Shown piece by piece: positions 29,846-50,257 of a DNA stretch of 64,000 bases. The notes below the pieces were generated by a model. That model saw only the letters and a list, made by a program, of their open reading frames with translations, made no database searches and was not told the origin of the DNA. Each line of letters opens with the position of its first letter. Within the stretch, counting starts at the first letter, position 1. The position numbers and the translations under genes are program-made. Origin of the DNA: Desulfovibrio sp. (lineage in GTDB: Bacteria; Desulfobacterota; Desulfovibrionia; Desulfovibrionales; Desulfovibrionaceae); the NCBI RefSeq assembly GCF_034006445.1, contig NZ_JAVESS010000010.1:28933-92932 (forward strand). Reading direction: 5' to 3'.

Positions 29846-31014
29846 CCATGACAGACGGTGCCAGGGGGGATTTGGATGCGCCTCGCGCGGACGGCGTGAC
29901 GATAACTCCCGCTACATGCCCTGCCGCAGACCCGGCAGTAGACCCGGCCGCAGGCCTTGCTGCTGATTCCGCCGCAGGCCTTGCCGCAGATTCTGCCACA
30001 GACCCTGCCGCAGGCCCGGCAGTATACCCGGCCGCAGGCCTTGCCGCAGACCCGGCAGTAGACCCGGCCGCAGCCCCTCTGCTTGAACTGCGCGAAGTTT
30101 CACGGCGTTTTGCCGTCAGGCGGGGTTTTTTTGCCGAGCAGCGCCTTCTTACGGCTGTGGACGCCGTGAGCCTTTGTCTTTATCCCGGTGAAAGTCTGGG
30201 GCTTGTGGGCGAATCGGGCTGCGGCAAATCGACTTTGGGGCGGCTTGCCTGCGGTCTGCTCGCACCCTCAGAGGGGCAGGCGCTGCTTGGCGGCAGGGAT
30301 TTGCCCCCGGCAGGGGCCAACAGCTGGGCCTCCGGGCAGATTCAGATGGTATTTCAGGACCCTTTTTCTTCACTCAACCCACGGCTTTCCGCCAGGGCCT
30401 CCATTGCCGAGCCTCTGGCTGCGCGCAACATTCCCCGGGGCGAACGCCTCAGGCTGGCTGACGAAATGCTTGCCACCGTGGGGCTTGAAGGCATGGGGGG
30501 AAGGTACCCTCACGAATTTTCGGGCGGCCAGCGTCAGCGCATAGCCGTGGCCCGCGCGCTTATCACCCGGCCTCAGGTGGTGGTATGCGATGAGCCCGTG
30601 TCCGCTCTGGACGCCTCGGTGCAGGCGCAGATACTGAACTTGCTGCGCGACGTGCAGGAACACTTTGGCCCGGCCTATCTTTTCATTTCGCACGACCTTT
30701 CCGTGGTGGGTTTTTTGTGCAGGCGCATTGTGGTCATGTATCTGGGGCAGGTGGTGGAAGAAGCCTCAGCGGAGCAGCTTTTTTCCGGCGCGGCCCACCC
30801 CTACACGCAGGCGCTCATGGCCGCCATGCCCACGGGCGAGGGCGGGGGCTATCTTGCCCCGCCGCTGGAAGGCGAACTGCCAAGCCCTCTGGACCCGCCG
30901 AACGGCTGCCGTTTTCATCCCCGTTGCCCCAAGGCGCAGGATATTTGCCGTCGTGAGGCTCCGGCCTGGAAGGAGCGCGCCCCGGACTGGCGGGCACGCT
31001 GCTGGTTTGCCTGA
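29839..31014 (+). CDS. Oligopeptide/dipeptide-type ABC ATP-binding protein with Ala/Asp/Pro repeat N-terminus
   Basis: GESGCGKS, QMVFQDP, FSGGQRQR, CDEP, HPYT, PPNGCRFHPRC. Confidence 0.9.
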   Translation: MLTMTDGARGDLDAPRADGVTITPATCPAADPAVDPAAGLAADSAAGLAADSATDPAAGPAVYPAAGLAADPAVDPAAAPLLELREVSRRFAVRRGFFAEQRLLTAVDAVSLCLYPGESLGLVGESGCGKSTLGRLACGLLAPSEGQALLGGRDLPPAGANSWASGQIQMVFQDPFSSLNPRLSARASIAEPLAARNIPRGERLRLADEMLATVGLEGMGGRYPHEFSGGQRQRIAVARALITRPQVVVCDEPVSALDASVQAQILNLLRDVQEHFGPAYLFISHDLSVVGFLCRRIVVMYLGQVVEEASAEQLFSGAAHPYTQALMAAMPTGEGGGYLAPPLEGELPSPLDPPNGCRFHPRCPKAQDICRREAPAWKERAPDWRARCWFA

Positions 31015-31081
31015 CGCGCACCGGGCAGGGCGCTCGAAGGGCGGGCCGAAAAACCGTTTTTCCTGTTCTTTTACCGAATGA

Positions 31082-31124
31082 AACGTCGGCTTTCAGGCAT
31101 GCCTGAAAGCCGACGTTATTTTTA
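31082..31124 (+). terminator. Rho-independent terminator
   Basis: 17-bp stem AACGTCGGCTTTCAGGC-at-GCCTGAAAGCCGACGTT then ATTTTTA. Confidence 0.75.
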
Positions 31125-31187
31125 CCGCGCCGGACTGGCCACGGGTTTTGAAACATCCCCACTTCAGATCAGAAAACCCTTTGTGCC

Positions 31188-31338
31188 TAGAGCAGATTAA
31201 CTTTGAAATGCTTCACATTTCAAAGTGTTCATTCAGCCGAAAAATGTGATTTTCAGCTGAATCCACGCCACGTTGTGGCGCGCTGCACTTTTGTGCAGCG
31301 TTAGAGCATTTACACTTTTTCAAAGTTAAAATGCTCTA
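31188..31338. mobile_element. MITE-like element, family C copy 1 (151 bp)
   Basis: TAGAGCAGATT...AAAATGCTCTA; matches 62790-62940 (inverted) and both arms of 39289-39640. Confidence 0.85.
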
Positions 31339-31350
31339 ATGAACCACAAC

Positions 31351-31416
31351 AAGAGTTTTAGGGGGAGGGGGTGTGGGGGAGGAGACCCTTTTGCAAAAGG
31401 GTCCCTCCCCCACAAA
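31351..31416. repeat. REP-like GC-rich hairpin, family E copy 2
   Basis: Similar to 16364-16422; followed by CCTAACCG 8-mer repeats at ~31437-31462. Confidence 0.7.
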
Positions 31417-31453
31417 GTATTTCACCATAACCTTAACCTAACCGCCTAACCGC

Positions 31454-32284
31454 CTAACCGCCCTTGCGTTCCATTTCCGCACCGCGGGCGTCAGCGGCCA
31501 GCACGGCGTCAACCAGAAGGCCGGTGAGGCCCGCGCGATCCAGCACGTTCACTCCGGCAATGGTCAGGCCGCCGGGCGAGCAGACGTTGTCCCGCAGCTG
31601 TCCGAGGGGTGAGGCGTCCTGCTCCGCCATGCGGGCCGATCCGGCAAAAAGGGCCGTGACCATCTGCCGTGACTGGGCGTGGGTGAAGCCCAGCGTCACT
31701 CCGGCCTGCACGAGTCCCTGCATCATGGCAAACACGTAGGCCGGGCCAGCGCCAATGAGCGCGGAAAAGGCCGTGAACTTTTCTTCAGCCAGTTCAACGC
31801 ACTGCCCCAGAGTGCCGAAAACCTGCAAAAGGTTTTGCTTGTGGCTTTGGGAGAGTTTGGGGTCTTCAAGGCACAGGGCAAACACGCCCATGCCCACCAG
31901 GGCGGGCGTATTGGGCATGCAGCGCACTACGGGGCAGGCGTTTTCGGCCCATTGGGCAAGGCTGTTGCTGGTGATGCCCGCAGCCACGGACACAAGAACC
32001 TTGTTTGCGTCAAGCGCGGGGCGCAGTTGCCCCACCACTTCCCGTATCTGGTAGGGCTTGACCGCCAGAATGATGATGTCCGCATTTTCGGCCACAGCGA
32101 GGGGGCTTGTCATGACCTGCACCCCTGCTTCTTCAAGGGGACGCATGCGCGAGGTTGTGCGGTTGTAGCCACACAAAGCGTAAGCGTCCGTCTGGCCCTG
32201 GGTATGGCCCGCACTGCGGGCCAGCCCGGCCAGAATGGCTCCACCCATATTGCCGCAACCTACACAGCCTATGCGCATTGTCAT
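31454..32284 (-). CDS. proC: Pyrroline-5-carboxylate reductase
   Basis: GCGNMG, ILAVKP, VRCMPNTP, GAGPAY, VCSPGGLT. Confidence 0.95.
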   Translation of the reverse strand: MTMRIGCVGCGNMGGAILAGLARSAGHTQGQTDAYALCGYNRTTSRMRPLEEAGVQVMTSPLAVAENADIIILAVKPYQIREVVGQLRPALDANKVLVSVAAGITSNSLAQWAENACPVVRCMPNTPALVGMGVFALCLEDPKLSQSHKQNLLQVFGTLGQCVELAEEKFTAFSALIGAGPAYVFAMMQGLVQAGVTLGFTHAQSRQMVTALFAGSARMAEQDASPLGQLRDNVCSPGGLTIAGVNVLDRAGLTGLLVDAVLAADARGAEMERKGG

Positions 32285-36773: not shown

Positions 36774-37277
36774 TTACTTGCAGCATTCGCTGGCGTTGAA
36801 AAAGGCAGCCGTGCCAGCGCCGCACACGGGACAGGCGTCACAGGGGCCTTCGTGGGTGTAGCCGCAGACCTTACAGATGTAGTAGTCGGTCGCGGGCAGA
36901 CCAGCGGGGTTTTCAAGGGCCTTTTTATACAGGGTGGCGTGCACTTCTTCGACGGTGTTCACAAAGTCGAAATATTTGGCGATGGCGGTCTTGCCTTCTT
37001 CCTGGGCGTCCTTGATCATTTCGGGATACATCTTGGTGAATTCGTAGGTTTCACCTTCAATGGCCGCCTTGAGGTTGGCCACAGTGTCGCCGATTTTGCC
37101 AGCGTTGCGCAGATGCGCGTGGGCATGGATGGTTTCGGCGGCAGCAGCAGCGCGGAACAGCTTGGCAACCTGGGGCATGCCTTCTTTGTCGGCAGCCTGG
37201 GCAAAGGCAAGATATTTACGGTTGGCCTGGGATTCACCAGCAAAAGCCGTCATGAGATTTTCTTGAGTCTTGCTCAT
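36774..37277 (-). CDS. rbr: Rubrerythrin
   Basis: AFAGESQANRKY, EETIH-like ETIH and EEVH diiron ligands, C-terminal CKVCG...CPVC rubredoxin domain. Confidence 0.92.
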   Translation of the reverse strand: MSKTQENLMTAFAGESQANRKYLAFAQAADKEGMPQVAKLFRAAAAAETIHAHAHLRNAGKIGDTVANLKAAIEGETYEFTKMYPEMIKDAQEEGKTAIAKYFDFVNTVEEVHATLYKKALENPAGLPATDYYICKVCGYTHEGPCDACPVCGAGTAAFFNASECCK

Positions 37278-37317
37278 TTTTCACTCCTTACAGTGTAAAA
37301 ATTTTGTTGTTTGATTT

Positions 37318-37336
37318 ATCGAGAACGATTCCTATT
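37318..37336 (-). promoter_or_regulatory. PerR-like box upstream of rubrerythrin
   Basis: Minus strand AATAGGAATCGTTCTCGAT, an imperfect 19-bp palindrome 41 bp upstream of the start; resembles the Desulfovibrio PerR consensus as recalled. Confidence 0.6.
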
Positions 37337-37445
37337 TAACCAATAGCCCTGTGCTTGTAAAGCCTTTTTGTAATAATTTTACGTGTGCTGGGTGCAACTA
37401 CTGATATCTATATAAAATAATTATTTATTAATGGCAATTTTACGT

Positions 37446-37570
37446 TAGGCAGTTTGTGAATGAAATGAGTAAATTACTCTACAAGAATTTTCATGAAATC
37501 CTTGCCACGAACAGCGATCAGGCGGTTTTGCGCCTGCCGTGAGCGAGAATTTCAAGTGTTCATTGCGCTA
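37446..37570. mobile_element. Degenerate family B element, copy 4
   Basis: TAGGCAGTTTGTGAATGAAATGAG...CAAGTGTTCATTGCGCTA is colinear with 24388-24515 with many substitutions. Confidence 0.72.
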
Positions 37571-37758
37571 AGGGCACTCCGTCATTGTGGCAGGGCGCGC
37601 ATTTGTCTGTCATATCCTCAAGCCTGTGCCATATAAGTATGCGCCATGCGGTGACGTGACATTTGCTCCGCACCGGCTGCCGTGCGGCAGACCTGCGCCA
37701 GCCACAGCGAGAGCGTGCCGCCGTTGCCTAAGCTTCCGGCTGCGGTTACACTGCCCGC

Positions 37759-38481
37759 ATGGACGCCAGTAATATTATTGAAAAGCTTGCTCTCGTCCCC
37801 CATCCAGAAGGGGGATATTACCGCCGTACCTATCAGTGCGGGCAGGTGCTGACGCCCAGGGGCATGCCTTGCGGGTTCGAGCAGCCCCGGCCCGTATCGA
37901 CAGCCATACTTTTTCTGCTGCGGGCAGGGCAATATTCGCGCCTGCACCGCATACGCCAGGACGAGTTGTGGCACTTTCACCTTGGCGGGCCGTTGCGGCT
38001 GGTCTGGATAGACAAAGTGGGCCGCGCCCGCGAGGTCATTTTGGGGCCGGATATTTTCAACGGGCAGGCCTTGCAGTTTGCCGTGCCCGGCGGCCAGTGG
38101 TTCGGGGCCACGCCAGCGCCCGGTTCCGGGTTTTCACTGGTGGGGTGTACGGTTGCTCCAGGTTTTGACTTTACCGATCTGCAGCTGGCCCGGCGTCACG
38201 AACTGGAGCGGCGTTTTCCTCTGGCGCTCGATTGTGTCCGCGAATTCTGCCCGCCAGACGGCCCGCCTGAAATTTTGCCAGAGATTTTGCCAAATCCTTC
38301 GCCAAATGCTTTGGCAAACGCGTTGCCAAACACTTTGCCAAACACTCTGGCAGCCGCCCCGCAAAGCACCCCATCAGCTGTTCCCATAAATGCCCCGGCT
38401 CTGGATTTGCCGCAGCATGCGCAAGGTGAGGCACGCTGCCATGAAGACGATCCTCTGTGGCACTGCAAGGGGCGGGCATGA
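37759..38481 (+). CDS. Cupin-superfamily protein (DUF985/YML079W-like)
   Basis: LVPHPEGGYY, TAILFLL, HRIRQDELWHFHLG, FSLVGCTVAPGFDF; repetitive tail EILPEILPN... Confidence 0.85.
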   Translation: MDASNIIEKLALVPHPEGGYYRRTYQCGQVLTPRGMPCGFEQPRPVSTAILFLLRAGQYSRLHRIRQDELWHFHLGGPLRLVWIDKVGRAREVILGPDIFNGQALQFAVPGGQWFGATPAPGSGFSLVGCTVAPGFDFTDLQLARRHELERRFPLALDCVREFCPPDGPPEILPEILPNPSPNALANALPNTLPNTLAAAPQSTPSAVPINAPALDLPQHAQGEARCHEDDPLWHCKGRA

Positions 38482-39110
38482 GCCGTTACGCCGTGCCTGC
38501 CGCCGCCCCGGATCAGCCGCACTGCACAGAAATGATCATCCGCCGCAGCCGCTTTCTTGCCCTTTGCGCCCACACGCCTGGGCCCGTTGCCGCCCGCGCT
38601 TTTGTGGAAGAAATACGCAGGCGTCACGCGGATGCCACCCATAACTGCTGGGCGTACGCGGCGGGAGCGCCGGGGCATACGGCCCAGATCGGCTCCTCCG
38701 ACGATGGCGAGCCTCACGGCACGGCTGGCCGGCCCATGTTGCAGGTAATGCTGCACAGCGGCGTGGGCGAGTTGTGCGTGGTGGTGAGTCGCTGGTTCGG
38801 CGGGGTCAAGCTCGGCACTGGCGGCCTTGTGCGCGCCTATCAGGACAGCGTGCGCGAAAATCTGTCTTCCCTTCCTCTGGTGGAGCGCGTGCCGAAGGCC
38901 CGCCTGGCCCTTACGGTGGAATACGCCCATGTGGACGCCCTGCGCCGTTTGCTGCCGACTTTTGAGGCGCAGACAGCGACCGAAGATTATGCGGCCCAGG
39001 CGCATTTTACGCTGCTGCTGCCCGAAGAGCATCTGGCGCAGTTCGAACTGGCCCTGGCAGGACTGAGCAATGGCTCGGCCCTTTGCCAGCGCGTTGAAGA
39101 AGACGTCTGA
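38478..39110 (+). CDS. yigZ: YigZ/IMPACT-family protein
   Basis: SRFLA, ATHNCWAY, DDGEPHGTAGRPML, RWFGGVKLGTGGLVRAY; ATGA overlap. Confidence 0.92.
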   Translation: MSRYAVPAAAPDQPHCTEMIIRRSRFLALCAHTPGPVAARAFVEEIRRRHADATHNCWAYAAGAPGHTAQIGSSDDGEPHGTAGRPMLQVMLHSGVGELCVVVSRWFGGVKLGTGGLVRAYQDSVRENLSSLPLVERVPKARLALTVEYAHVDALRRLLPTFEAQTATEDYAAQAHFTLLLPEEHLAQFELALAGLSNGSALCQRVEEDV

Positions 39111-39288
39111 ATCGCATTGGCGACAAGGTTCAGCGATACTACGCTGGGCAATGCGCCGAGACAGAACGCCGCGCGTGGGTGTTCTGTCTGCTGTTCCCCA
39201 CAACTTGGCATGCGCGAAAGGAAGATGCTTTTTCCTCCAGCAGTGGCAATGCATCTGCTGTTCACGTGCGCCTTGCCGGTACTTCCTC

Positions 39289-39640
39289 TAGAGCAGATCA
39301 ACTTTGAAATGCTTCTCATTTCAAAGTTTTCATTCAGCCGAAAAATGCGATTTGCGTCACCCACCAGCAGGCTGCACGTTCTATTAACCAATTGCTGTCT
39401 TTGCGGCAGTCGTTGGCGAGTCTACGAGCCTTACGAATGGCGACAGCGATTGCACAGAACAAAATGGATAGTTACTCATGCTGTCTTCAAGCGTAGTTTC
39501 CTGCGTCACAACGCTTTAAGCGTCCGTAGCTTCCTTCGTCGCAACGGCCAAAGCTCGGCTGAATCCACGCCACGTTGTGGCGCGCTGCACTTTCGTGCAG
39601 CGTTAGAGCATTTACATTTTTTCAAAGTTAAAATGCTCTA
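39289..39640. mobile_element. Long family C element (352 bp) with a ~201-bp internal segment
   Basis: Left arm to 39353 and right arm from 39555 match copy 31188-31338; 39354-39554 is extra. Confidence 0.82.
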
Positions 39641-40052
39641 ACATGTCTGATTTTTTGTTCCCCCTCGTTTCACTCTACTGTGTGTATAAGAATAGCCGGG
39701 TCTGGTGCCCCACGCTGCAATTGCCGCTGCAAGTGCTGCACACCGCGAGCCAGGGGTGCCCTTGGGTACAATGGACTGCTCCCTGGCAATCTCTTTTGAC
39801 GCGCATTACTCGCAGGTTTCTGTTAAAATAGTATAATACTAAAAAATAATTGTATGTTTTTATTGTGCTGAATGCATTTTATGTCTGGCTGTCTTGCTGC
39901 ACAAACCATGCTGAAATTTTCAGTTAAATAAAAGGGTGTGAAATTGTACTGTTGATTTATACCTAAACACATTGTATAAAAAAATGCATAATTATAATGA
40001 ATATGGTGTCAATAGACAGAGATAAATAAAACGCCAATGGGGGTAGACGTCT

Positions 40053-40757
40053 ATGTGTCGCACATTTCACGCCGTAACGCTGTGTATTAGTTTAGGATGC
40101 ATATTTTTTGTGATGTTGTTTTGCAAACCTGCTTTCAGTGCTGAGGATGCGTCAAATGTCCAGGCTCGCGCTGGTGCATTGCAGACATGGCGTGAACAAT
40201 GTGCCGACCCAGACCCGGACCTGCGCCTTGCATATATTGAAAGTGCAATTGCCAGCAATGATACCAGTATTCAGCGTATTTGCATACGGCTGGCTCTGCA
40301 GAGTGATAATGCTGACGTTCGCAACCTTGGTCTGCGTGCTGCGCTTGTATCTGTTCCGCAAATTACGTTTGTGACAACCATGCCCAGAAGTTTTGAAAAT
40401 GACCTTAGACACGCAGCTGGAGATGATAAAAAACTCAGTAACATAAAGAATAGTCCAGGGTATCGTCTGTATGAAGGTGTGAGGGGCGGATTAATCATGT
40501 GCAGTGAAAAAGTTGAATTTGAAAAAAATAATTTTATCTGGAATTCTCTGGCTTCAAATTCTGAAGTAAGAAGCGACTTCACCGGAAAGGCAGTAATCAT
40601 AGGGTCACGAATTAATTGGACAGGAAGAGTGTTCGGAATTGCTGGAACTGGGTATAATTGTACAATAAATGTGGCGCTTACAAGTGATGCAAAGCTGAGG
40701 GGTGTTCTTGATTGTCGCGATGCGGCTCCGATAGATATTATTGCGGATCTTTTATAG
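40053..40757 (+). CDS. Hypothetical exported protein (cassette gene 1)
   Basis: Signal peptide ending PAFSA; helical repeat-like segment DPDLRLAY...NADVRNLGLRA; lower GC. Confidence 0.75.
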   Translation: MCRTFHAVTLCISLGCIFFVMLFCKPAFSAEDASNVQARAGALQTWREQCADPDPDLRLAYIESAIASNDTSIQRICIRLALQSDNADVRNLGLRAALVSVPQITFVTTMPRSFENDLRHAAGDDKKLSNIKNSPGYRLYEGVRGGLIMCSEKVEFEKNNFIWNSLASNSEVRSDFTGKAVIIGSRINWTGRVFGIAGTGYNCTINVALTSDAKLRGVLDCRDAAPIDIIADLL

Positions 40758-40773
40758 AAATCAGAGGCATAAA

Positions 40774-41514
40774 ATGCGGATAGCTTTTTTTGCTTTATGC
40801 TGCTTCATGACAATGGCGTTGCCCGGTACGCTACCATCAAGCGCATTTTCAGCCGAGTCCTTGCCAGTGATTGAAGCTGACGCGGCATCGTTCAAAGAAA
40901 GTTTCGACCAGGCAGTACCAGTTTCAGGCAATATTATTGCGGGGCTCCGGTTTGGCGACGGGGCGAAAAAAATCTCCGCCAACGGCACATTTCTTGCGCC
41001 ACCGCAGGGGCGAGATGTTTGTGTGCGCGTTGTGACGAGGGATGGCCGGTTTTCGGCCAGCAACATCTATCGCTTGGCCAATGACGAACAGCTTTCTCAG
41101 GCCAATGCCGCAGGGAGGGTGCATTTGTCGCCCATAACCCACAGTTATGCTGAAAAACTCGTCAATTACGTCGTTGACGACCTGGCTGTCAGTGCCTTTA
41201 TGGCGAGTGAAGGGGGGTGCGCAGCGGGCAAAACGCCCTACGTGCCGCAAATTGTCAGTCAAGGTACCGAGAAGGTCTTTACTGTTCTTGTAAACTCAGG
41301 TGGCCGTTCCTGCCGTCTCACGCTTCAGCCGAACAGGAAAAGCGTTCAGTGCGCGCGTTTTTCAAACGGAGCGCGCATCGCCTATGATCAGGAATGCGTC
41401 ATGGATGTTTCGCACCTTACACCGGGCATCAATAACTTCGTACTGGTTCTGGACGATGGCTTTAATGAAGAACGCAGCAGCTTTCAGGTGATTGTTCCCA
41501 GCAACCTGCCGTAG
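40774..41514 (+). CDS. Hypothetical exported protein (cassette gene 2)
   Basis: Start moved to MRIAFF (GAGG upstream); signal peptide ending SAFSA; several Cys. Confidence 0.75.
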   Translation: MRIAFFALCCFMTMALPGTLPSSAFSAESLPVIEADAASFKESFDQAVPVSGNIIAGLRFGDGAKKISANGTFLAPPQGRDVCVRVVTRDGRFSASNIYRLANDEQLSQANAAGRVHLSPITHSYAEKLVNYVVDDLAVSAFMASEGGCAAGKTPYVPQIVSQGTEKVFTVLVNSGGRSCRLTLQPNRKSVQCARFSNGARIAYDQECVMDVSHLTPGINNFVLVLDDGFNEERSSFQVIVPSNLP

Positions 41515-41521
41515 GTGAAGC

Positions 41522-42562
41522 ATGCAATTTGCCGTTCCAAATCGTCGCCATTTTGTGCGCACCCTCAATGCCCATGTGCAAAGAAAGCCCCGGCGGTTTT
41601 TTATTGGTGCCAGTTTTTTTCTAGCGCTATTGCTGGTTATCGTCCTTTACCTGCTGGTAAAAAAGGAACCCTACGTCGTTGTTGACGCTCTTACAGAGTC
41701 CGTCATCTATCGCGTTCGACGTCCACAACTTGCTGCAGTTCCGCTTGAAAATGCACTTGTACGGGGCCACGTAGAAAATTGTTCACTATTTTCCGCTGCA
41801 GACGAGTCGTCAAATTTTACCGGAATTGTCACGCCTTCTGTTGGAAGTATCGTTACTTATCGGTTTACACCCTCAAAGGTGTCTATCGAAATTAATGGCG
41901 GAGATTATAGCGGTGGCAATTTGACCAGTGATGATGGCGTTATCTGCGCTTTGCCACAGAGTATCAGTTTTGTTGCGGACATCAATAACTTCGTCAGGCG
42001 TCCTCTGCCTCTCGTGGGACCCGCTGACATCGGGCGGGAAATGTCGGTGCCAGAATCAACCGCTGTACTGCAACGTTCCGGCAGAGATTTTATGTTTGGC
42101 GGAACGGTACAGGTGTTTGGACGGGCAGTGGCGCCGCCTTTTCGGGGAGATTTGTACCCTTCGTCCAGTAATTCTTTTCCCCTCCCCGCAGGGGGCAGAG
42201 TCTCGTCAGGTGATAGTCTCAGCGCTAAACAAAAAGATAGTGGCGCGCCGGCTTTTTACGGTGTGGTCAGCGTTGACTCCCAGTCCTTCAAAGTTTCTGC
42301 GTCTACTGTTTCCAAAAAACTCAAGCTCTATCGCTCGGGCATGAGCGGCGAAAAAGAAGTTTTTGGATTGGGCATGCTTGCATTGGTTTTTTCCGACCCA
42401 AGCGTGATATTTATCACTGTTTTTATCGCCAGTTTTTCCTTTTCGATGCAATTGCTGAAGACGTTGCACGACATAGCCAAAAAGAACTTCGAAAATTCAG
42501 AACCCGGTGATTCAGGCGAAATGGCCCAACCCGTGAAGGATGTTCCCCCCAATGAGCATTAG
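41522..42562 (+). CDS. Hypothetical membrane protein with two TM regions flanking a large loop (cassette gene 3)
   Basis: Hydrophobic FFIGASFFLALLLVIVLYLLV and GMLALVFSDPSVIFITVFIASFSF. Confidence 0.75.
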   Translation: MQFAVPNRRHFVRTLNAHVQRKPRRFFIGASFFLALLLVIVLYLLVKKEPYVVVDALTESVIYRVRRPQLAAVPLENALVRGHVENCSLFSAADESSNFTGIVTPSVGSIVTYRFTPSKVSIEINGGDYSGGNLTSDDGVICALPQSISFVADINNFVRRPLPLVGPADIGREMSVPESTAVLQRSGRDFMFGGTVQVFGRAVAPPFRGDLYPSSSNSFPLPAGGRVSSGDSLSAKQKDSGAPAFYGVVSVDSQSFKVSASTVSKKLKLYRSGMSGEKEVFGLGMLALVFSDPSVIFITVFIASFSFSMQLLKTLHDIAKKNFENSEPGDSGEMAQPVKDVPPNEH

Positions 42563-42619
42563 CTGGATGCGCATCCCTGAGCGTGAAAAAAAACTGCAGT
42601 CAGGCGGGGTGAGCAGGAT

Positions 42620-43735
42620 ATGAAAATAAGCCTGTTCGTCTTCATATTGCTGATCGAGGTAGTTTGCCTTCCGGCTGCATGGGCTGAAACTGTTCATATT
42701 CAGGCACGGAGCGGGGAAGTGGGGCATGGGTGGCTGTTTGGATCCATGATTGATGGTGCGTGCTGGATAGTTACCCCGGCCCACGTGGTCGCGTCGCCGG
42801 AAACGGGAGAGCTTGAGCCATTCTACTTTTATGACGGGACCGAGGCTACGGGACAAAGTGCCAAACCATTTCGGCTTGTGACTGGAAAAGCAGTGACTGC
42901 AAAAGCAGAAAAAGAAGCAGATGATCTGGCTTTTGCCCGTGTACAAACAGGCCGAACTGACGGAGCGTGCACTTCTCGCCTTGGGCTTCAAGATTATGCT
43001 TACAAAAACCTGCTTCAGCGACAAAGTGGCTTTTACATTGCCAATATGTTCAAAACGAGTTCTGGCACGTTTAACGTCACCTTATCCCGTAAGGGAGTGG
43101 ACGCTTATGGCGGTGCTTTGCTCGAATTTTTTTCTGACGACCCGCGATCTGAACCATTCATGCACCAGGGATTGAGCGGTGCAACAGTTATGGCTGATTT
43201 TGGAAATAAAATTCAGCCTGTTGCCATGGTGGTAAGTATCAGCGCTGATAAAAAAAGAATCACAGCCTTGCGCTACGATTTTATCAAGAAACGCTTTGAG
43301 AAAGGCCCTCTACCAGAGGACGTCTCTGTCAGAAAAGATGCTGACGATGGGGATTTTGACTTTAAAATCATTGAGGCAAAGTATATGCCCATGCCCGGCG
43401 ACAAAGGCCCGGACAGTTTACGAGGGAAAAACGGATGCTGGAAAGCAGCGGCCAAGGGCGGGCAACGCACTGTTGAGTTGATTTTTGCAGTTAAAAATTC
43501 CAATGCCACAGTCTCAAGCATTGAGGTATTTCAATCCAACGATTGCCAGACTGCCCCGGCAAAGTTCTGGATTGATCAACGTTCTCCCGGTGCGGAAGAA
43601 TGGCAGTTTGTTGCTGCGGGTTCCAGCACGAGTGAAGGTGTAAAGTGTACTGTCAACAGCAAGGGAGTTCGAGAATTTCGCCTGAAATTTATGGCGGACA
43701 AACCCGTGGGCGTGGCCAGATTGCGCCTGCGTTAA
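42620..43735 (+). CDS. Exported divergent trypsin-like serine peptidase with C-terminal beta domain (cassette gene 4)
   Basis: Signal peptide (AAWA-E); triad-like motifs IVTPAHVV, DDLAFARV, QGLSGATV in the right order. Confidence 0.65.
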   Translation: MKISLFVFILLIEVVCLPAAWAETVHIQARSGEVGHGWLFGSMIDGACWIVTPAHVVASPETGELEPFYFYDGTEATGQSAKPFRLVTGKAVTAKAEKEADDLAFARVQTGRTDGACTSRLGLQDYAYKNLLQRQSGFYIANMFKTSSGTFNVTLSRKGVDAYGGALLEFFSDDPRSEPFMHQGLSGATVMADFGNKIQPVAMVVSISADKKRITALRYDFIKKRFEKGPLPEDVSVRKDADDGDFDFKIIEAKYMPMPGDKGPDSLRGKNGCWKAAAKGGQRTVELIFAVKNSNATVSSIEVFQSNDCQTAPAKFWIDQRSPGAEEWQFVAAGSSTSEGVKCTVNSKGVREFRLKFMADKPVGVARLRLR

Positions 43736-44010
43736 TGACTTTTTATGCTGTATTGCAGCGGCGGCCCTATGCGAAGCCGCCCGCCATGAGCTTGCCGCGC
43801 CCTTTCAGCCTTTGCCGCAGGTGCGGCGTATGCCTTGAATCATGCGACAAAAAATGAGCGAACTAATCAGTATCTATACTGATGCGGCCCTTTTCACGCA
43901 ATGCCAGTCGCCATGCAAAGATCGCAAATTTGCCACAATCGCATAACGTATGCACTGCTAGATAGTTGCGTGCAACTGCCGTGAAAGAAAGCATTGCTGC
44001 GAATAGCTGC

Positions 44011-44088
44011 GCGCAACGGGCCGCAAGGGCCAGCGTCGTCGAGAATTCCGCGCAACAGGTCGCAAGGGCCAGCGCCGTCGAGAACTGC
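44011..44088. repeat. Two 39-bp tandem repeats
   Basis: GCGCAAC.GG.CGCAAGGGCCAGCG.CGTCGAGAA at 44011 and 44050. Confidence 0.75.
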
Positions 44089-44195
44089 GCACAATAGGCT
44101 GCAACGGTCAGCGTCGCAACAGGCAGCGTCGCACCGGGCGTACTGCGGGAGTGGCGGCAGCCTGATGGCAAAGGCCGTCCGCGCGGGTTTGGCGG

Positions 44196-45362
44196 TTATT
44201 CCACCACTTTCACAGGCAGGCCAGGGGCAAGGCGCACCTGGCCGTCAACGACCACCAGTTCGCCTTCCGCCAATGTCCCTTCCACAACGGTGACGCCCTT
44301 GTGCTCAAACAGGGCCTTCACTGTGCGGTAAGCGGCGCGGTTGTCCTTGTCCACAACATACACATAGGATTCATCCCGGCCGGACTGCACCGCGCGCGCG
44401 GGCACGGTGAGCACCTGTTCCCCCATGCCAAGGGGCAGTTCCACCTGCACGAACTGGCCTGGCCACAGGTGGCGGTCGGCGTTTTCAAAGGTGGCCCGCA
44501 GGCGGATGGTGCCGGTGCGCGTGTCCACGGTATTGTCGACGAGGGTCAGCAGCCCGTGTTCCGGTTGCGCGCCTGTGGGCGTGGCAGTAACGAGGACGCT
44601 TTCAGTGGCCATGCGGTCAAGTATGACGGGCAGATGGGCCTCAGGAACGGAAAAGCCCACATAGATGGGCGAAAGGGTGTCGATACTCACAATGGGCGTT
44701 GCGTCAGTGGACTTTATCATGTTGCCCTTATCCACATTGAGCGCTCCAACCCGTCCGCTTATGGGGGCCACCACTGTGCAGTAGGCAAGGTCAAGGGCCG
44801 CGCTTTCCTCGGCAGCCTTGTCAGACTGCACCGTGGCGCGCAGCGCTGCGGCCTGGGTGGCGGTCTGTTCGTAGGCTTCACGGCTCACATAGCCGCCGCC
44901 CACCAGTTTTCCGTAGCGCGCCATGTCATCCAGGGCCTTGTTGAGTTGGGCCTGCGATTTGGCCAGCATGCCGCGCTTTTCACGCAGGATAGCCTCGAAA
45001 GGGCGGGGGTCGATGGTGACAAGGGGTTGCCCTTCCCGCACATCCTGCCCTTCTGTAAAGTGGACCTGCTGTATTTCGCCCGCCACGCGAGGTCTGACGC
45101 CCACAGAGGCCGATGCCCGCACGTTGCCCACCACGTGCAGCAGGCGCGGCACATCGGCACGGGCCACAGCGGCCGTGCGCACAGGCGCCGCAGGCGGGCC
45201 GGACGTTTTCTGGTCGTCGCCAAAGCAGCCGTTCAGGGCTGGAAGCAACGCAAGGCTCAGGGCCAGCAGCAGTGCCCGTGGGAAGGGGGCGCGCCGCAGC
45301 TGCCCCGCAAGGCTGGTACAGGAAAAAAATGGCGTCGCCGGGCGGTTGTCAAAGGGCGTCAT
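44196..45362 (-). CDS. RND efflux membrane-fusion protein (MdtA-like)
   Basis: Lipobox-like ALNGC, VRPRVAG, LVTIDPRP, APISGRVG, DTRTGT, LWPGQF. Confidence 0.9.
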   Translation of the reverse strand: MTPFDNRPATPFFSCTSLAGQLRRAPFPRALLLALSLALLPALNGCFGDDQKTSGPPAAPVRTAAVARADVPRLLHVVGNVRASASVGVRPRVAGEIQQVHFTEGQDVREGQPLVTIDPRPFEAILREKRGMLAKSQAQLNKALDDMARYGKLVGGGYVSREAYEQTATQAAALRATVQSDKAAEESAALDLAYCTVVAPISGRVGALNVDKGNMIKSTDATPIVSIDTLSPIYVGFSVPEAHLPVILDRMATESVLVTATPTGAQPEHGLLTLVDNTVDTRTGTIRLRATFENADRHLWPGQFVQVELPLGMGEQVLTVPARAVQSGRDESYVYVVDKDNRAAYRTVKALFEHKGVTVVEGTLAEGELVVVDGQVRLAPGLPVKVVE

Positions 45363-45536
45363 GGATATATCCTTAAAAGAAGCATGGCAGCGAATATACG
45401 GACAGCGCAACGCAGGGCCTCACTGGGCGGCCTGAACCAAGAGCGGGTATGACCATGCGGACAGGGTGAAGCAAGGGCCGCCCGGCGTCAAGCGAATAGA
45501 GGCATTTGGGGGCCTATTTGGGGCTGTTTGCCAACA

Positions 45537-49152: not shown

Positions 49153-50212
49153 ATGCTGCCGGAAGTGACTTCACGTTGCCCCTCATGCAATCTTTGCCAA
49201 AGCTACTCTTTGACAGTAGAGGGTCGCTGTCGTGGTGATTGTGCCATGTGAGAGGCCTCAGTTCTCAGTCGGATATGGCGGCCTTTCGCAGCGCTGCTTT
49301 TGCTGGTGCATACTGGCAGCGTGCAGGTGATGACAGGGGCGCGTATGCTGCTGGTCAGCATGGACGCGTTGCGGCTGCCCGAATCACGGGCGCGGCAATG
49401 TATGGGTAAAAAATCGTATCCGTACGGGTTGCCCGTCACGCCGTAGGGGGTGGGGGCACGGCCTGTGGTGCGTTCAGACGGTTGCGTGTTGGCGACAAGT
49501 CTTTGTTGCGCCGTCGTCCCTCTGACTGATCCACCTTCCCTGCCTGGTGGCAAGGCTGGCGAAAATCTGATTGTCTGGCGCGGTTTTTATTCCATTAAAG
49601 CAAAAATCTTATGATGTTCACAGCAATTGATATGAACAATTTGTGTAAAGAAGGTCAGAGTTGCTGTTGTGTAGTGGAAACAGCCATTGTTAATTGATAT
49701 AATACTACACAGTGGAGTTTTAAAATGTGCAGTACGCAAATTTTACCAGCACCTGTTGCAGAATATTATATATAAAGTATGTATTATGTGTTGCTATGCG
49801 CCATAAAAAACTATTACCCATTTGAGTTAAGGATGGCATGTGCAATAAAAATTGAAACAAAATGGCATTGAAAACTATTTCGGCGTACAAACAAAAATTA
49901 TAAAATACAAAAAATTTTATAAAAAGTGTACAGCTTCGCACAGTAACGTAGCGATTTTGCGTAGTTGTTTTTTATTAGTAGTAAAACATATTGCATGGTT
50001 CTTCAATAATAAAATAATGCCTGCGTTAAAGGTATGTTACGAATGCACCTCCATCCGCAAAGGCAAAAAGACAAATCGGTTCACTGGCATGGCTCAGGTC
50101 AGGTTGGAACAGGGCGGCGGGTAAAATGCGAAAGATTCTCTCGTAAAGGCAGCTTGGTTTGTGGGGGTATTATCCCCCCCCCAAAAAAAGTTGCCCAAAT
50201 TCTGTTGGACAC

Positions 50213-50247
50213 AGAAAAAGCCCTTACGATTTTCATCGTAAGGGCTT
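50213..50247 (-). terminator. Rho-independent terminator after tRNA-Arg
   Basis: AAGCCCTTACGAT-tttc-ATCGTAAGGGCTT with a T-run on the minus strand. Confidence 0.78.
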
Positions 50248-50257
50248 GATTCTTTAG

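What the first reader, a model, noticed from the sequence alone, without database searches (positions are those of the whole stretch)
39820..43735. Foreign-looking four-gene cassette of exported proteins ending in a trypsin-like protease
Seen: a very AT-rich upstream region (39820-40050), then four tightly packed same-strand ORFs with visibly lower GC than the flanks. Two are signal-peptide proteins with Cys pairs, one has two TM regions with a large loop, and one is a signal-peptide protease-like protein. A long MITE lies on the left and repeats plus an orphan efflux gene on the right. I recognise no family for genes 1-3. Inference: a horizontally acquired envelope module such as a protease-triggered sensing, defence or antagonism system. 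This is the best candidate here for a system with wholly unknown components.
Basis: partly seen in the sequence, partly recalled or inferred. Interest (0 to 1): 0.75.

Follow-up and report, generated by a model that had tools for sequence, protein, structure and literature searches.

The report
Mobile four-gene periplasmic protease module
A 5-kb piece of foreign DNA in a Desulfovibrio-like genome carries four genes that always travel together in rare, scattered bacteria and encode a membrane-tethered protease working outside the cytoplasm with three partner proteins of unknown family; what it does is still unknown.

Summary
Four tightly packed + strand genes (40053-43735) lie in a 5.1-kb insertion. 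It is low in GC (GC3 0.36-0.57 against 0.63-0.74 in the flanks). In the two closest relatives the flanking genes are only 55-220 bp apart.

- g1 and g2 are Sec-exported proteins with conserved cysteines.
- g3 is a two-TM inner-membrane protein. Its periplasmic beta domain is modelled confidently (pLDDT 89) but matches no PDB or BFVD fold.
- g4 is an exported chymotrypsin-fold serine protease with an invariant His/Asp/Ser triad and a C-terminal F5/8-type-C/CBM32-like domain.

None of the four matches any Pfam, NCBIfam, PADLOC or PHROG family.

The same four genes co-occur in about 20 other loci from Desulfovibrionaceae, Alphaproteobacteria and metagenomes, in two layouts and in unrelated flanks. 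Fewer than 1% of related genomes carry them. Natural g3-g4 fusions exist. In two variant loci a secreted caspase-like peptidase sits beside a g1-like or g3-like gene where the S1 protease would be.

Best reading: a self-contained, horizontally mobile, membrane-docked periplasmic protease complex with accessory proteins.

The parts
39111..44195 (.). About 5.1 kb inserted between the convergent UPF0029/YigZ-type gene (38457-39110, +) and the HlyD-family membrane-fusion gene (44196-45410, -). No integrase, tRNA, Rfam hit or target-site duplication was detected.
   Evidence: In G019 and G008 the two flanking genes are about 55 and 220 bp apart. The insert has GC 0.494 against 0.583 for the window. 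Searches were negative for mobility signatures.
39289..39640 (.). Long copy of a MITE family with 21-nt terminal inverted repeats. It lies inside the insertion, left of the cassette, and is probably unrelated to the cassette's function.
   Evidence: Inverted repeat I4. There are 92 BLAST pieces in the own genome, mostly a short form of about 155 nt.
39820..40052 (+). AT-rich (GC 0.29) leader and putative promoter region of the operon.
   Evidence: There are two sigma-70-like consensus matches, at 39823-39850 and 39964-39992 (pattern matches only).
40053..40757 (+). g1: Sec-exported 234-aa protein. Its N-terminal helical-repeat-like segment (residues 36-100) is extremely conserved. The C-terminal part is more variable, with 4 conserved Cys.
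   Evidence: 59 homologue clusters. Alignment A3 has invariant R39, W46, C50, D56, Y61, E63, R75, C77, G93-L94-R95 and others. Mean pairwise identity is 71% over residues 36-100 and 33-37% elsewhere. No Pfam or PDB sequence hit. Signal peptide.
40774..41514 (+). g2: Sec-exported 246-aa protein with conserved Cys and the motifs VTRDGRFSANNIY and LDDGF.EE. An alternative TTG start lies at 40741.
   Evidence: Present in every full cassette.
41522..42562 (+). g3: inner-membrane protein. It has a short basic N-terminus, TM1, an all-beta periplasmic domain of about 240 residues, TM2 and a short variable tail. Proposed membrane dock for the protease.
   Evidence: AF2 model with pLDDT 89.1 and pTM 0.82. 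No fold match in PDB or BFVD. 137 clusters at 50% identity. No Pfam hit in 68 members. Natural fusions to g4 exist.
42620..43735 (+). g4: Sec-exported serine protease. Residues 23-228 form a chymotrypsin-fold domain (H55, D102, S186). Residues 249-371 form an F5/8-type-C/CBM32-like beta-sandwich.
   Evidence: AF2 model with pLDDT 81.8. Foldseek hits include VesC 6bqm (E=4e-7), AL20, thrombin, HtrA1, CBM32 4a42_B and F5/8-C 2kd7. The triad is invariant in 15 + 12 homologues. Trypsin_2 is below its threshold.
44010..44087 (.). Two copies of a 39-nt GC-rich tandem repeat in the spacer between g4 and the efflux gene. Meaning unknown.
   Evidence: family D1 (87% identity).

Best explanation
The region is a horizontally acquired, self-contained operon for a four-component proteolytic machine that works outside the cytoplasm.

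Shown:
- All four products are exported or membrane-inserted.
- g4 is a chymotrypsin-fold serine protease with an intact His-Asp-Ser triad and a lectin-like C-terminal beta-sandwich.
- g3 is a two-TM inner-membrane protein with a large periplasmic beta domain that matches no known fold.
- g1 and g2 are soluble periplasmic proteins with conserved cysteines.
- The four genes are inherited as a unit across two phyla.
- g3 and g4 are fused into one polypeptide in some bacteria.

Inferred mechanism:
- After Sec export, g4 docks on the periplasmic domain of g3, which holds the protease at the outer face of the inner membrane.
- The lectin-like domain of g4, together with g2, selects an envelope-located or incoming target.
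- g1 binds the protease as an adaptor or gatekeeper. Its N-terminal helical segment is the most constrained part of the system, and a g1-family gene also pairs with a secreted caspase-like peptidase elsewhere.
- Cleavage of the target then remodels or protects the envelope.

The substrate and the physiological role are unknown.
For: Anatomy:
- ORFs and short gaps.
- Signal peptides and TM segments.
- g4 fold and triad.
- g3 confident model without a fold match.

Functional linkage:
- All four families are present in 20 further loci with unrelated flanks. There are two layouts: g1>g2>g3>g4, and g2>g3>g4 with g1 convergent.
- Of six g1-seeded metagenome loci with enough flank, five carry all four genes.
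- Distance matrices of the four proteins correlate at r = 0.70-0.93, Mantel p about 5e-4.
- g3::g4 fusions P0103 and P0132 keep g2 upstream and g1 convergent.
- The protease is swappable. A signal-peptide Peptidase_C14 lies next to a g3 relative in L015 and next to a g1 relative in L043.
- g1 residues 36-100 average 71% identity across 42 homologues.

Horizontal origin:
- Empty site in the nearest relatives.
- GC3 difference.
- Rarity.
- One copy sits on a conjugative-element backbone (ArdC, DUF3363, DUF736).
Against: - No experiment, expression data or complex model supports the docking or the adaptor roles.
- g1 and g2 have no structure and no family, so 'adaptor' and 'substrate selector' are guesses. 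g1's HEAT-like character rests on one UniRef name and motif resemblance; no Pfam HEAT model hits any of 42 members.
- The fusions keep a signal-peptidase-like A-x-A|E site, so the fused protein may be cut apart again.
- The mirror-tree correlation is expected for any co-inherited genes and does not prove contact.
- The protease-swap idea rests on only two loci.
Confidence: 0.55

Rival explanations
1. Envelope-level defence or conflict system. The module senses or destroys something that enters the periplasm, such as phage injection machinery, bacteriocins, T6SS effectors or predatory bacteria. The protease either degrades the invader or triggers self-damage.
For: - Distribution is rare, patchy and cross-phylum, with a low-GC insertion.
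- It sits next to an Mrr-type restriction gene (L004/L006).
- It sits next to a GASH/DO-GTPase/EAD1/caspase conflict system and a transposase (L012).
- It occurs on a conjugative-element backbone (L016).
- A variant locus lies beside a colicin/pyocin DNase-type gene (L015).
- Swapping of the protease (S1 for caspase-like) is typical of conflict systems (the generalisation is my own knowledge).
Against: - None of the four proteins hits PADLOC or PHROGs.
- Only 2 of 9 loci have true defence neighbours; the other PADLOC hits among 67 neighbours are generic domains.
- Most flanks are housekeeping genes.
- It was not found on any of 72,556 plasmids, 50,697 phage records or 2.9 million viral contigs.
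- Fully periplasmic defence systems are unusual.
Confidence: 0.25
2. Proteolytic signalling cascade of the DegS-RseA-RseB or SpoIVB-SpoIVFA kind. g3 is the membrane substrate or transducer. g4 cleaves its periplasmic domain when its C-terminal domain binds a cue. g1 and g2 protect the site until then.
For: - The part list is analogous: a periplasmic S1-fold protease with an extra ligand-binding domain, a membrane protein with a large periplasmic domain, and soluble periplasmic partners.
- A sigma factor gene lies nearby in two loci: RpoH-type in L011 and ECF-type in L017.
Against: - g3 has no anti-sigma or other cytoplasmic domain. Its cytoplasmic ends are short and the least conserved parts, at 16-17% identity.
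- No regulator, site-2 protease or sigma factor is consistently linked.
- g4 has no PDZ domain.
Confidence: 0.1
3. Pro-toxin or antagonism module. g1 or g2 is a secreted toxin or adhesin precursor that g4 matures. This resembles trypsin-plus-lectin subunits in umbrella toxin particles.
For: - The trypsin-plus-lectin architecture of g4 is similar. The Umb1 particle chain 8w20_G is among the fold hits (rank 23).
- g1 and g2 are conserved, exported and cysteine-rich.
Against: - No outer-membrane secretion system, immunity gene or recognisable toxin domain is linked.
- The Umb match is no better than matches to generic trypsins.
- The triad is intact, whereas a purely scaffolding role would tolerate its loss.
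- g1's strong conservation is unlike fast-evolving toxins.
Confidence: 0.05
4. Ordinary housekeeping envelope protease operon for protein quality control or cell-wall turnover, analogous to Prc-NlpI. It merely looks foreign.
For: The pairing of a periplasmic protease with a helical-repeat partner resembles Prc-NlpI and CtpA-LbcA (my own knowledge). In most loci the neighbours are housekeeping genes.
Against: - It is absent from over 99% of related genomes and from the identical site in the closest relatives, so it cannot be housekeeping.
- Its composition is foreign.
Confidence: 0.04

Closest known systems
Secreted S1/PA-clan serine proteases with a C-terminal beta-sandwich, such as Vibrio cholerae VesC (PDB 6bqm)
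   Same: A chymotrypsin-type double beta-barrel is followed by an extra beta-sandwich domain. The protein is Sec-exported. The His-Asp-Ser order and spacing are almost those of chymotrypsin (H55/D102/S186 against H57/D102/S195).
   Different: Sequence identity is only 9-15%. There is no PDB sequence hit even with a profile, and Trypsin_2 is below its Pfam threshold. This protease is embedded in an obligatory four-gene set with a membrane partner.
DegS-RseA-RseB envelope-stress proteolysis
   Same: A periplasmic S1-fold protease at the inner membrane, with an added ligand-binding domain, a membrane protein partner and soluble periplasmic partners.
   Different: There is no PDZ domain, no anti-sigma domain, and no linked sigma factor or site-2 protease. 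g4 is tethered through g3 rather than through its own anchor, except in the fusions.
Prc-NlpI and CtpA-LbcA (periplasmic protease plus helical-repeat adaptor)
   Same: The concept of a helical-repeat periplasmic protein that delivers substrates to, or gates, a serine protease. This is proposed here for g1.
   Different: Those proteases are S41 with TPR lipoprotein adaptors. Here the protease is S1-fold and g1 is not a lipoprotein, matches no TPR or HEAT model, and has an added beta domain. The resemblance is functional analogy only.
UmbA subunits of Streptomyces umbrella toxin particles (PDB 8w20)
   Same: A trypsin-like domain joined to a lectin-type domain that works with a helical-repeat partner. 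It is among the fold hits (rank 23).
   Different: No toxin stalk protein is linked. The hosts are diderm, the components are periplasmic and the catalytic triad is intact. The match is no stronger than to any trypsin.
Secreted bacterial caspase-like (Peptidase_C14) modules with DUF4384 and OmpA partners
   Same: In L015 and L043 a signal-peptide C14 peptidase sits beside a g3-family or g1-family gene, in the place of the S1 protease.
   Different: The window's cassette has no C14, DUF4384 or OmpA component. Those loci lack g2 and g4.

Membership tests
PA clan / peptidase family S1 (chymotrypsin fold) | Double beta-barrel chymotrypsin fold | tested here: met
   The AF2 model (pLDDT 81.8) gives 174 PDB matches at E<=1e-3, dominated by S1 proteases with TM(target) 0.5-0.6.
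PA clan / peptidase family S1 (chymotrypsin fold) | Catalytic His, Asp, Ser in that order, conserved | tested here: met
   H55, D102 and S186 are invariant in 15 homologues and in 12 further ones, including fusions and alphaproteobacterial copies. Their spatial arrangement was not inspected because no coordinates were available.
Pfam Trypsin_2 (PF13365) | Score at or above the gathering threshold (27.6 bits) | tested here: not met
   The window protein scores 14.2 bits (E=0.074). Eight of 15 family members match weakly, best E=7.6e-5.
HtrA/DegP/DegS | C-terminal PDZ domain(s) | tested here: not met
   No PDZ hit. The C-terminal domain matches F5/8-type-C and CBM32 folds instead.
F5/8 type C / CBM32 (galactose-binding-like) domain | Beta-sandwich fold of this type | tested here: met
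   Foldseek hits 4a42_B (CBM32; TMt 0.67, E=1.4e-5) and 2kd7 (F5/8-C; TMt 0.61).
F5/8 type C / CBM32 (galactose-binding-like) domain | Sequence match to the Pfam model; carbohydrate binding | tested here: not met
   No Pfam hit in any of 15 members. Ligand binding cannot be tested with these tools.
HEAT/ARM-type helical repeats (g1 N-terminus) | Match to a HEAT-family model, or a helical-repeat structure | tested here: not met
   No HEAT model hits any of 42 members at E<=0.1. There is no PDB profile hit. The only support is one source name, 'HEAT repeat domain-containing'.
Known anti-phage defence systems (PADLOC-DB 2.0) | Any component matching a defence-system model | tested here: not met
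   No hits for the four proteins at E<=1.
Defence island resident | Recurrent neighbourhood of known defence genes | tested here: inconclusive
   Two of 9 loci have true defence or conflict neighbours (Mrr; GTPase/caspase system). The other PADLOC hits among 67 neighbours are generic domains.
Sigma/anti-sigma regulated proteolysis (RseA-type) | Membrane partner with a cytoplasmic anti-sigma domain and a linked sigma factor | tested here: not met
   No domain was found in 68 g3 members. The cytoplasmic ends are short and variable. Sigma genes are nearby in only 2 loci.
Classical genomic island / integrative element | Integrase, tRNA target, or direct repeats at the borders | tested here: not met
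   No integrase ORF, no tRNA and no border repeats. An empty site in relatives does show that it is an insertion.

The most novel reading that the evidence does not exclude
The cassette is the founding example of a previously unrecognised class of fully periplasmic, protease-centred surveillance systems. A membrane sensor with a new fold (g3) and a highly conserved gatekeeper (g1) control an interchangeable executioner protease (S1-type or caspase-like). That protease acts on invaders, or on the cell's own envelope, before anything reaches the cytoplasm.
Probability: 0.2. Interest if true: 0.85.

Novelty: new variant of a known kind. Interest (0 to 1): 0.62.

Why it matters
Three of the four proteins define families absent from Pfam, NCBIfam, PADLOC and PHROGs. 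One of them has a confident predicted structure with no counterpart among solved or viral structures. The strict co-inheritance across two phyla, the natural fusion of membrane protein and protease, and the replacement of the protease by a caspase-like enzyme in variants together give a clear and testable picture of a new envelope machine.

If the module guards the periplasm, it would extend bacterial immunity to a compartment where few systems are known. If it remodels the envelope, it is a portable trait that moves between sulfate reducers, rhizobia and marine bacteria. Either way it yields four new protein families and a defined operon for experiments.

Tried and rejected
- Family searches (Pfam, NCBIfam, PADLOC, PHROGs) on the four proteins found nothing except a sub-threshold Trypsin_2 hit.
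- A Pfam scan of 68 g3, 42 g1 and 15 g4 homologues found no shared domain.
- Profile searches of PDB sequences with A1-A4 found nothing meaningful.
- Fold searches of g3 against PDB and BFVD gave a best E of about 0.01 and TM<=0.17.
- Profile-profile comparison among g1, g2 and g3 showed no hidden paralogy.
- Remote g1 or g2 relatives in the L015 variant were not detected.
- Plasmid, phage and viral-contig searches had no hit.
- Rfam and tRNA scans of the insertion found nothing.
- There is no sigma-54 promoter motif upstream, and no shared AT-richness of leaders in other loci (GC 0.34-0.70).
- The genome-contig scan with the broad g3 alignment failed for lack of a conserved block, so the g4 alignment was used instead.
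- Three literature searches found no description of this gene set.
- I considered that the HlyD-family efflux gene had lost its pump through the insertion and rejected it. The same lone arrangement exists in relatives without the cassette.

Full report
**What is there**

The window carries four co-directional ORFs with gaps of 16, 7 and 57 nt and a plausible ribosome-binding site before each.
- g1: 40053-40757.
- g2: 40774-41514, with an alternative TTG start at 40741.
- g3: 41522-42562.
- g4: 42620-43735.

They follow a 230-bp leader of GC 0.29. Cassette GC3 is 0.36-0.57, against 0.63-0.74 for the neighbouring genes. Those neighbours are rubrerythrin, a Cupin_5 gene, a UPF0029/YigZ-type gene, a HlyD-family membrane-fusion gene and arginine decarboxylase.

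Hydropathy shows a single N-terminal signal segment followed by A-x-A|E in g1, g2 and g4, and two TM segments in g3.

**It is an insertion**

The closest orthologues of the membrane-fusion gene lie in two same-genus genomes, G019 (87% identity) and G008 (82%). In both, that gene is the convergent neighbour of the YigZ-type gene, about 55 and 220 bp away. All surrounding genes are collinear with the window.

In the window, 5085 bp (39111-44195) separate the two genes. That stretch holds a MITE (39289-39640), the AT-rich leader, the four genes and a spacer with a 39-nt tandem repeat. The MITE family has dozens of copies in this genome. No integrase, tRNA, Rfam family or target duplication marks the borders.

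The 'orphan' efflux gene is therefore ancestral and unrelated to the cassette.

**The proteins**

No protein reaches a threshold in Pfam, NCBIfam, PADLOC or PHROGs.

g4:
- It folds with pLDDT 81.8 into an N-terminal chymotrypsin-type double barrel and a C-terminal beta-sandwich.
- Foldseek finds S1 proteases (VesC, AL20, thrombin, HtrA1, FAM111A) for the first domain, and CBM32 and F5/8-type-C domains for the second.
- His55, Asp102 and Ser186 are invariant in all 27 homologues examined. Their spacing is nearly that of chymotrypsin.

g3:
- It folds with pLDDT 89.1 as TM helix, all-beta periplasmic domain (residues 51-282), TM helix.
- Nothing in PDB or BFVD resembles it.
- Its cytoplasmic ends are short and poorly conserved.

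g1 and g2:
- They have conserved cysteines and strong motifs but no detectable relatives of known structure or family.
- Residues 36-100 of g1 average 71% identity across 42 homologues from two phyla. This is the most constrained segment of the system.
- Its HEAT-like nature is unconfirmed.

**The four genes are one unit**

Family sizes differ. g4 homologues number only 16 clusters among 5.8 billion proteins in a word-seeded search. g1 has 59 clusters, g2 has 11, and g3 has 137 clusters at 50% identity in an exhaustive search.

I scored every fetched locus with profiles of all four families. Twenty further loci carry all four, and four short contigs are consistent up to their ends. A few of the 20 may be the same species sampled twice.

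There are two layouts:
- g1>g2>g3>g4 in Desulfovibrionaceae, including Nitratidesulfovibrio oxamicus and a Megalodesulfovibrio paquesii-like contig.
- g2>g3>g4 with a convergent g1 in Neorhizobium galegae, Devosia nitrariae, a Tropicibacter-like contig, and marine and compost metagenomes.

The flanks differ in every locus.

Pairwise distance matrices of the four proteins correlate at r = 0.70-0.93.

Two proteins of about 700 residues are natural fusions of g3 and g4. They retain the triad, an A-E-x-V motif after the third hydrophobic segment, g2 upstream and g1 convergent. This is the strongest evidence that the membrane protein and the protease work together.

**Variants**

A distant g3 relative (L015) lies downstream of a signal-peptide Peptidase_C14, with DUF4384 and OmpA genes nearby. 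A g1 relative (L043) lies immediately downstream of another secreted Peptidase_C14 and has no g2, g3 or g4.

So g1 and g3 each behave as protease-associated parts, and the protease itself can be exchanged. This rests on two loci only.

**Distribution**

- The cassette is absent from 24 same-genus genomes.
- It is present in 3 of 401 genomes of the order, in three genera.
- It is present in 1 of 301 genomes of the family containing the Neorhizobium locus.
- Among 185,579 species representatives, the g4 pattern scan confirmed three loci, all Desulfovibrionaceae. That scan used one short peptide pattern and will have missed divergent copies.
- It is absent from the plasmid, phage and viral-contig collections.
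- One copy sits on a conjugative-element backbone.

**Function**

The evidence supports a membrane-docked periplasmic protease complex with accessory proteins. It does not identify the substrate.

A defence or conflict role fits the rarity, the mobility, some neighbours (Mrr; a GTPase/caspase conflict system; a colicin-type DNase) and the protease swapping. But only 2 of 9 loci have true defence neighbours, and most flanks are housekeeping genes.

A DegS/RseA-type signalling role is unlikely, because g3 has no cytoplasmic domain and no regulator is consistently linked. A toxin-maturation role lacks a secretion route, an immunity gene and a toxin domain. A housekeeping role is excluded by the distribution.

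**Limits**

- Model coordinates could not be inspected.
- No paper describing this gene set was found.
This agrees with what was found here.

**Verdict**

The horizontal origin and the envelope location are established. The system is a real, conserved and uncharacterised four-component module built around a known enzyme fold. Its biological role remains open.

Noticed in passing
window 39289-39640; also about 31187-31340: A MITE family with 21-nt terminal inverted repeats (TAGAGCAGATCAACTTTGAAA...). The genome has a few long copies (260-360 nt), a mid-size form (about 235 nt) and some 35-40 short copies (about 155 nt) made of the two ends. A second copy in the window coincides with a GC dip near 31000-31500.
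   Followed up: partly
window 44010-44087: Two tandem copies of a 39-nt GC-rich unit (87% identical), plus related 15-nt pieces up to 44130, lie between g4 and the efflux gene. The empty site in G008 also holds GC-rich tandem repeats (CTGACGCTGCTGCGCGGGGGGG).
   Followed up: no
window 44196-45410 (-): A lone HlyD-family membrane-fusion gene has no adjacent pump or outer-membrane gene. The same lone arrangement between the YigZ-type gene and speA is conserved in relatives, so it is an ancestral oddity and not a result of the insertion.
   Followed up: partly
window 37759-38481 (+): The Cupin_5 (DUF985) protein carries a C-terminal low-complexity tail with short peptide repeats (PEILPEILPNPSPNALANALPNTLPNTL).
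   Followed up: no
L012 1-6446: A complete GASH / DO-GTPase2 / DO-GTPase1 / GAP1-N1-EAD1 / Peptidase_C14 conflict system lies directly upstream of the cassette's g1 gene in a Tropicibacter-like contig. A DDE transposase lies downstream.
   Followed up: no
L003 10379-17119; L016 9902-13137: Other extracytoplasmic sensor and protease gene sets sit close to the cassette in two unrelated loci. L003 has a CHASE2-guanylate cyclase, a FecR-TPR giant protein and an S8 peptidase. L016 has a CHASE2 protein and a 710-aa M48 peptidase. This may be coincidence or a shared niche.
   Followed up: no
L015 1-7797: This variant locus holds an OmpA-family gene, a DUF4384 gene, an NMT1_3 periplasmic binding protein, a secreted Peptidase_C14, a 267-aa secreted protein and a g3-family membrane protein. 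Next to them are a colicin/pyocin-type DNase gene and a coupling-protein-like gene.
   Followed up: partly
L017 6948-8003: The g4 homologue in this locus is called as a 266-aa product that lacks the first 100 or so residues, including the catalytic His. The open frame extends further upstream, so this may be a mis-called start or a decaying copy.
   Followed up: no
window 49500-50250 and 37000-37750: Two further sharp GC troughs (0.35-0.45) lie in the window outside the finding.
   Followed up: no
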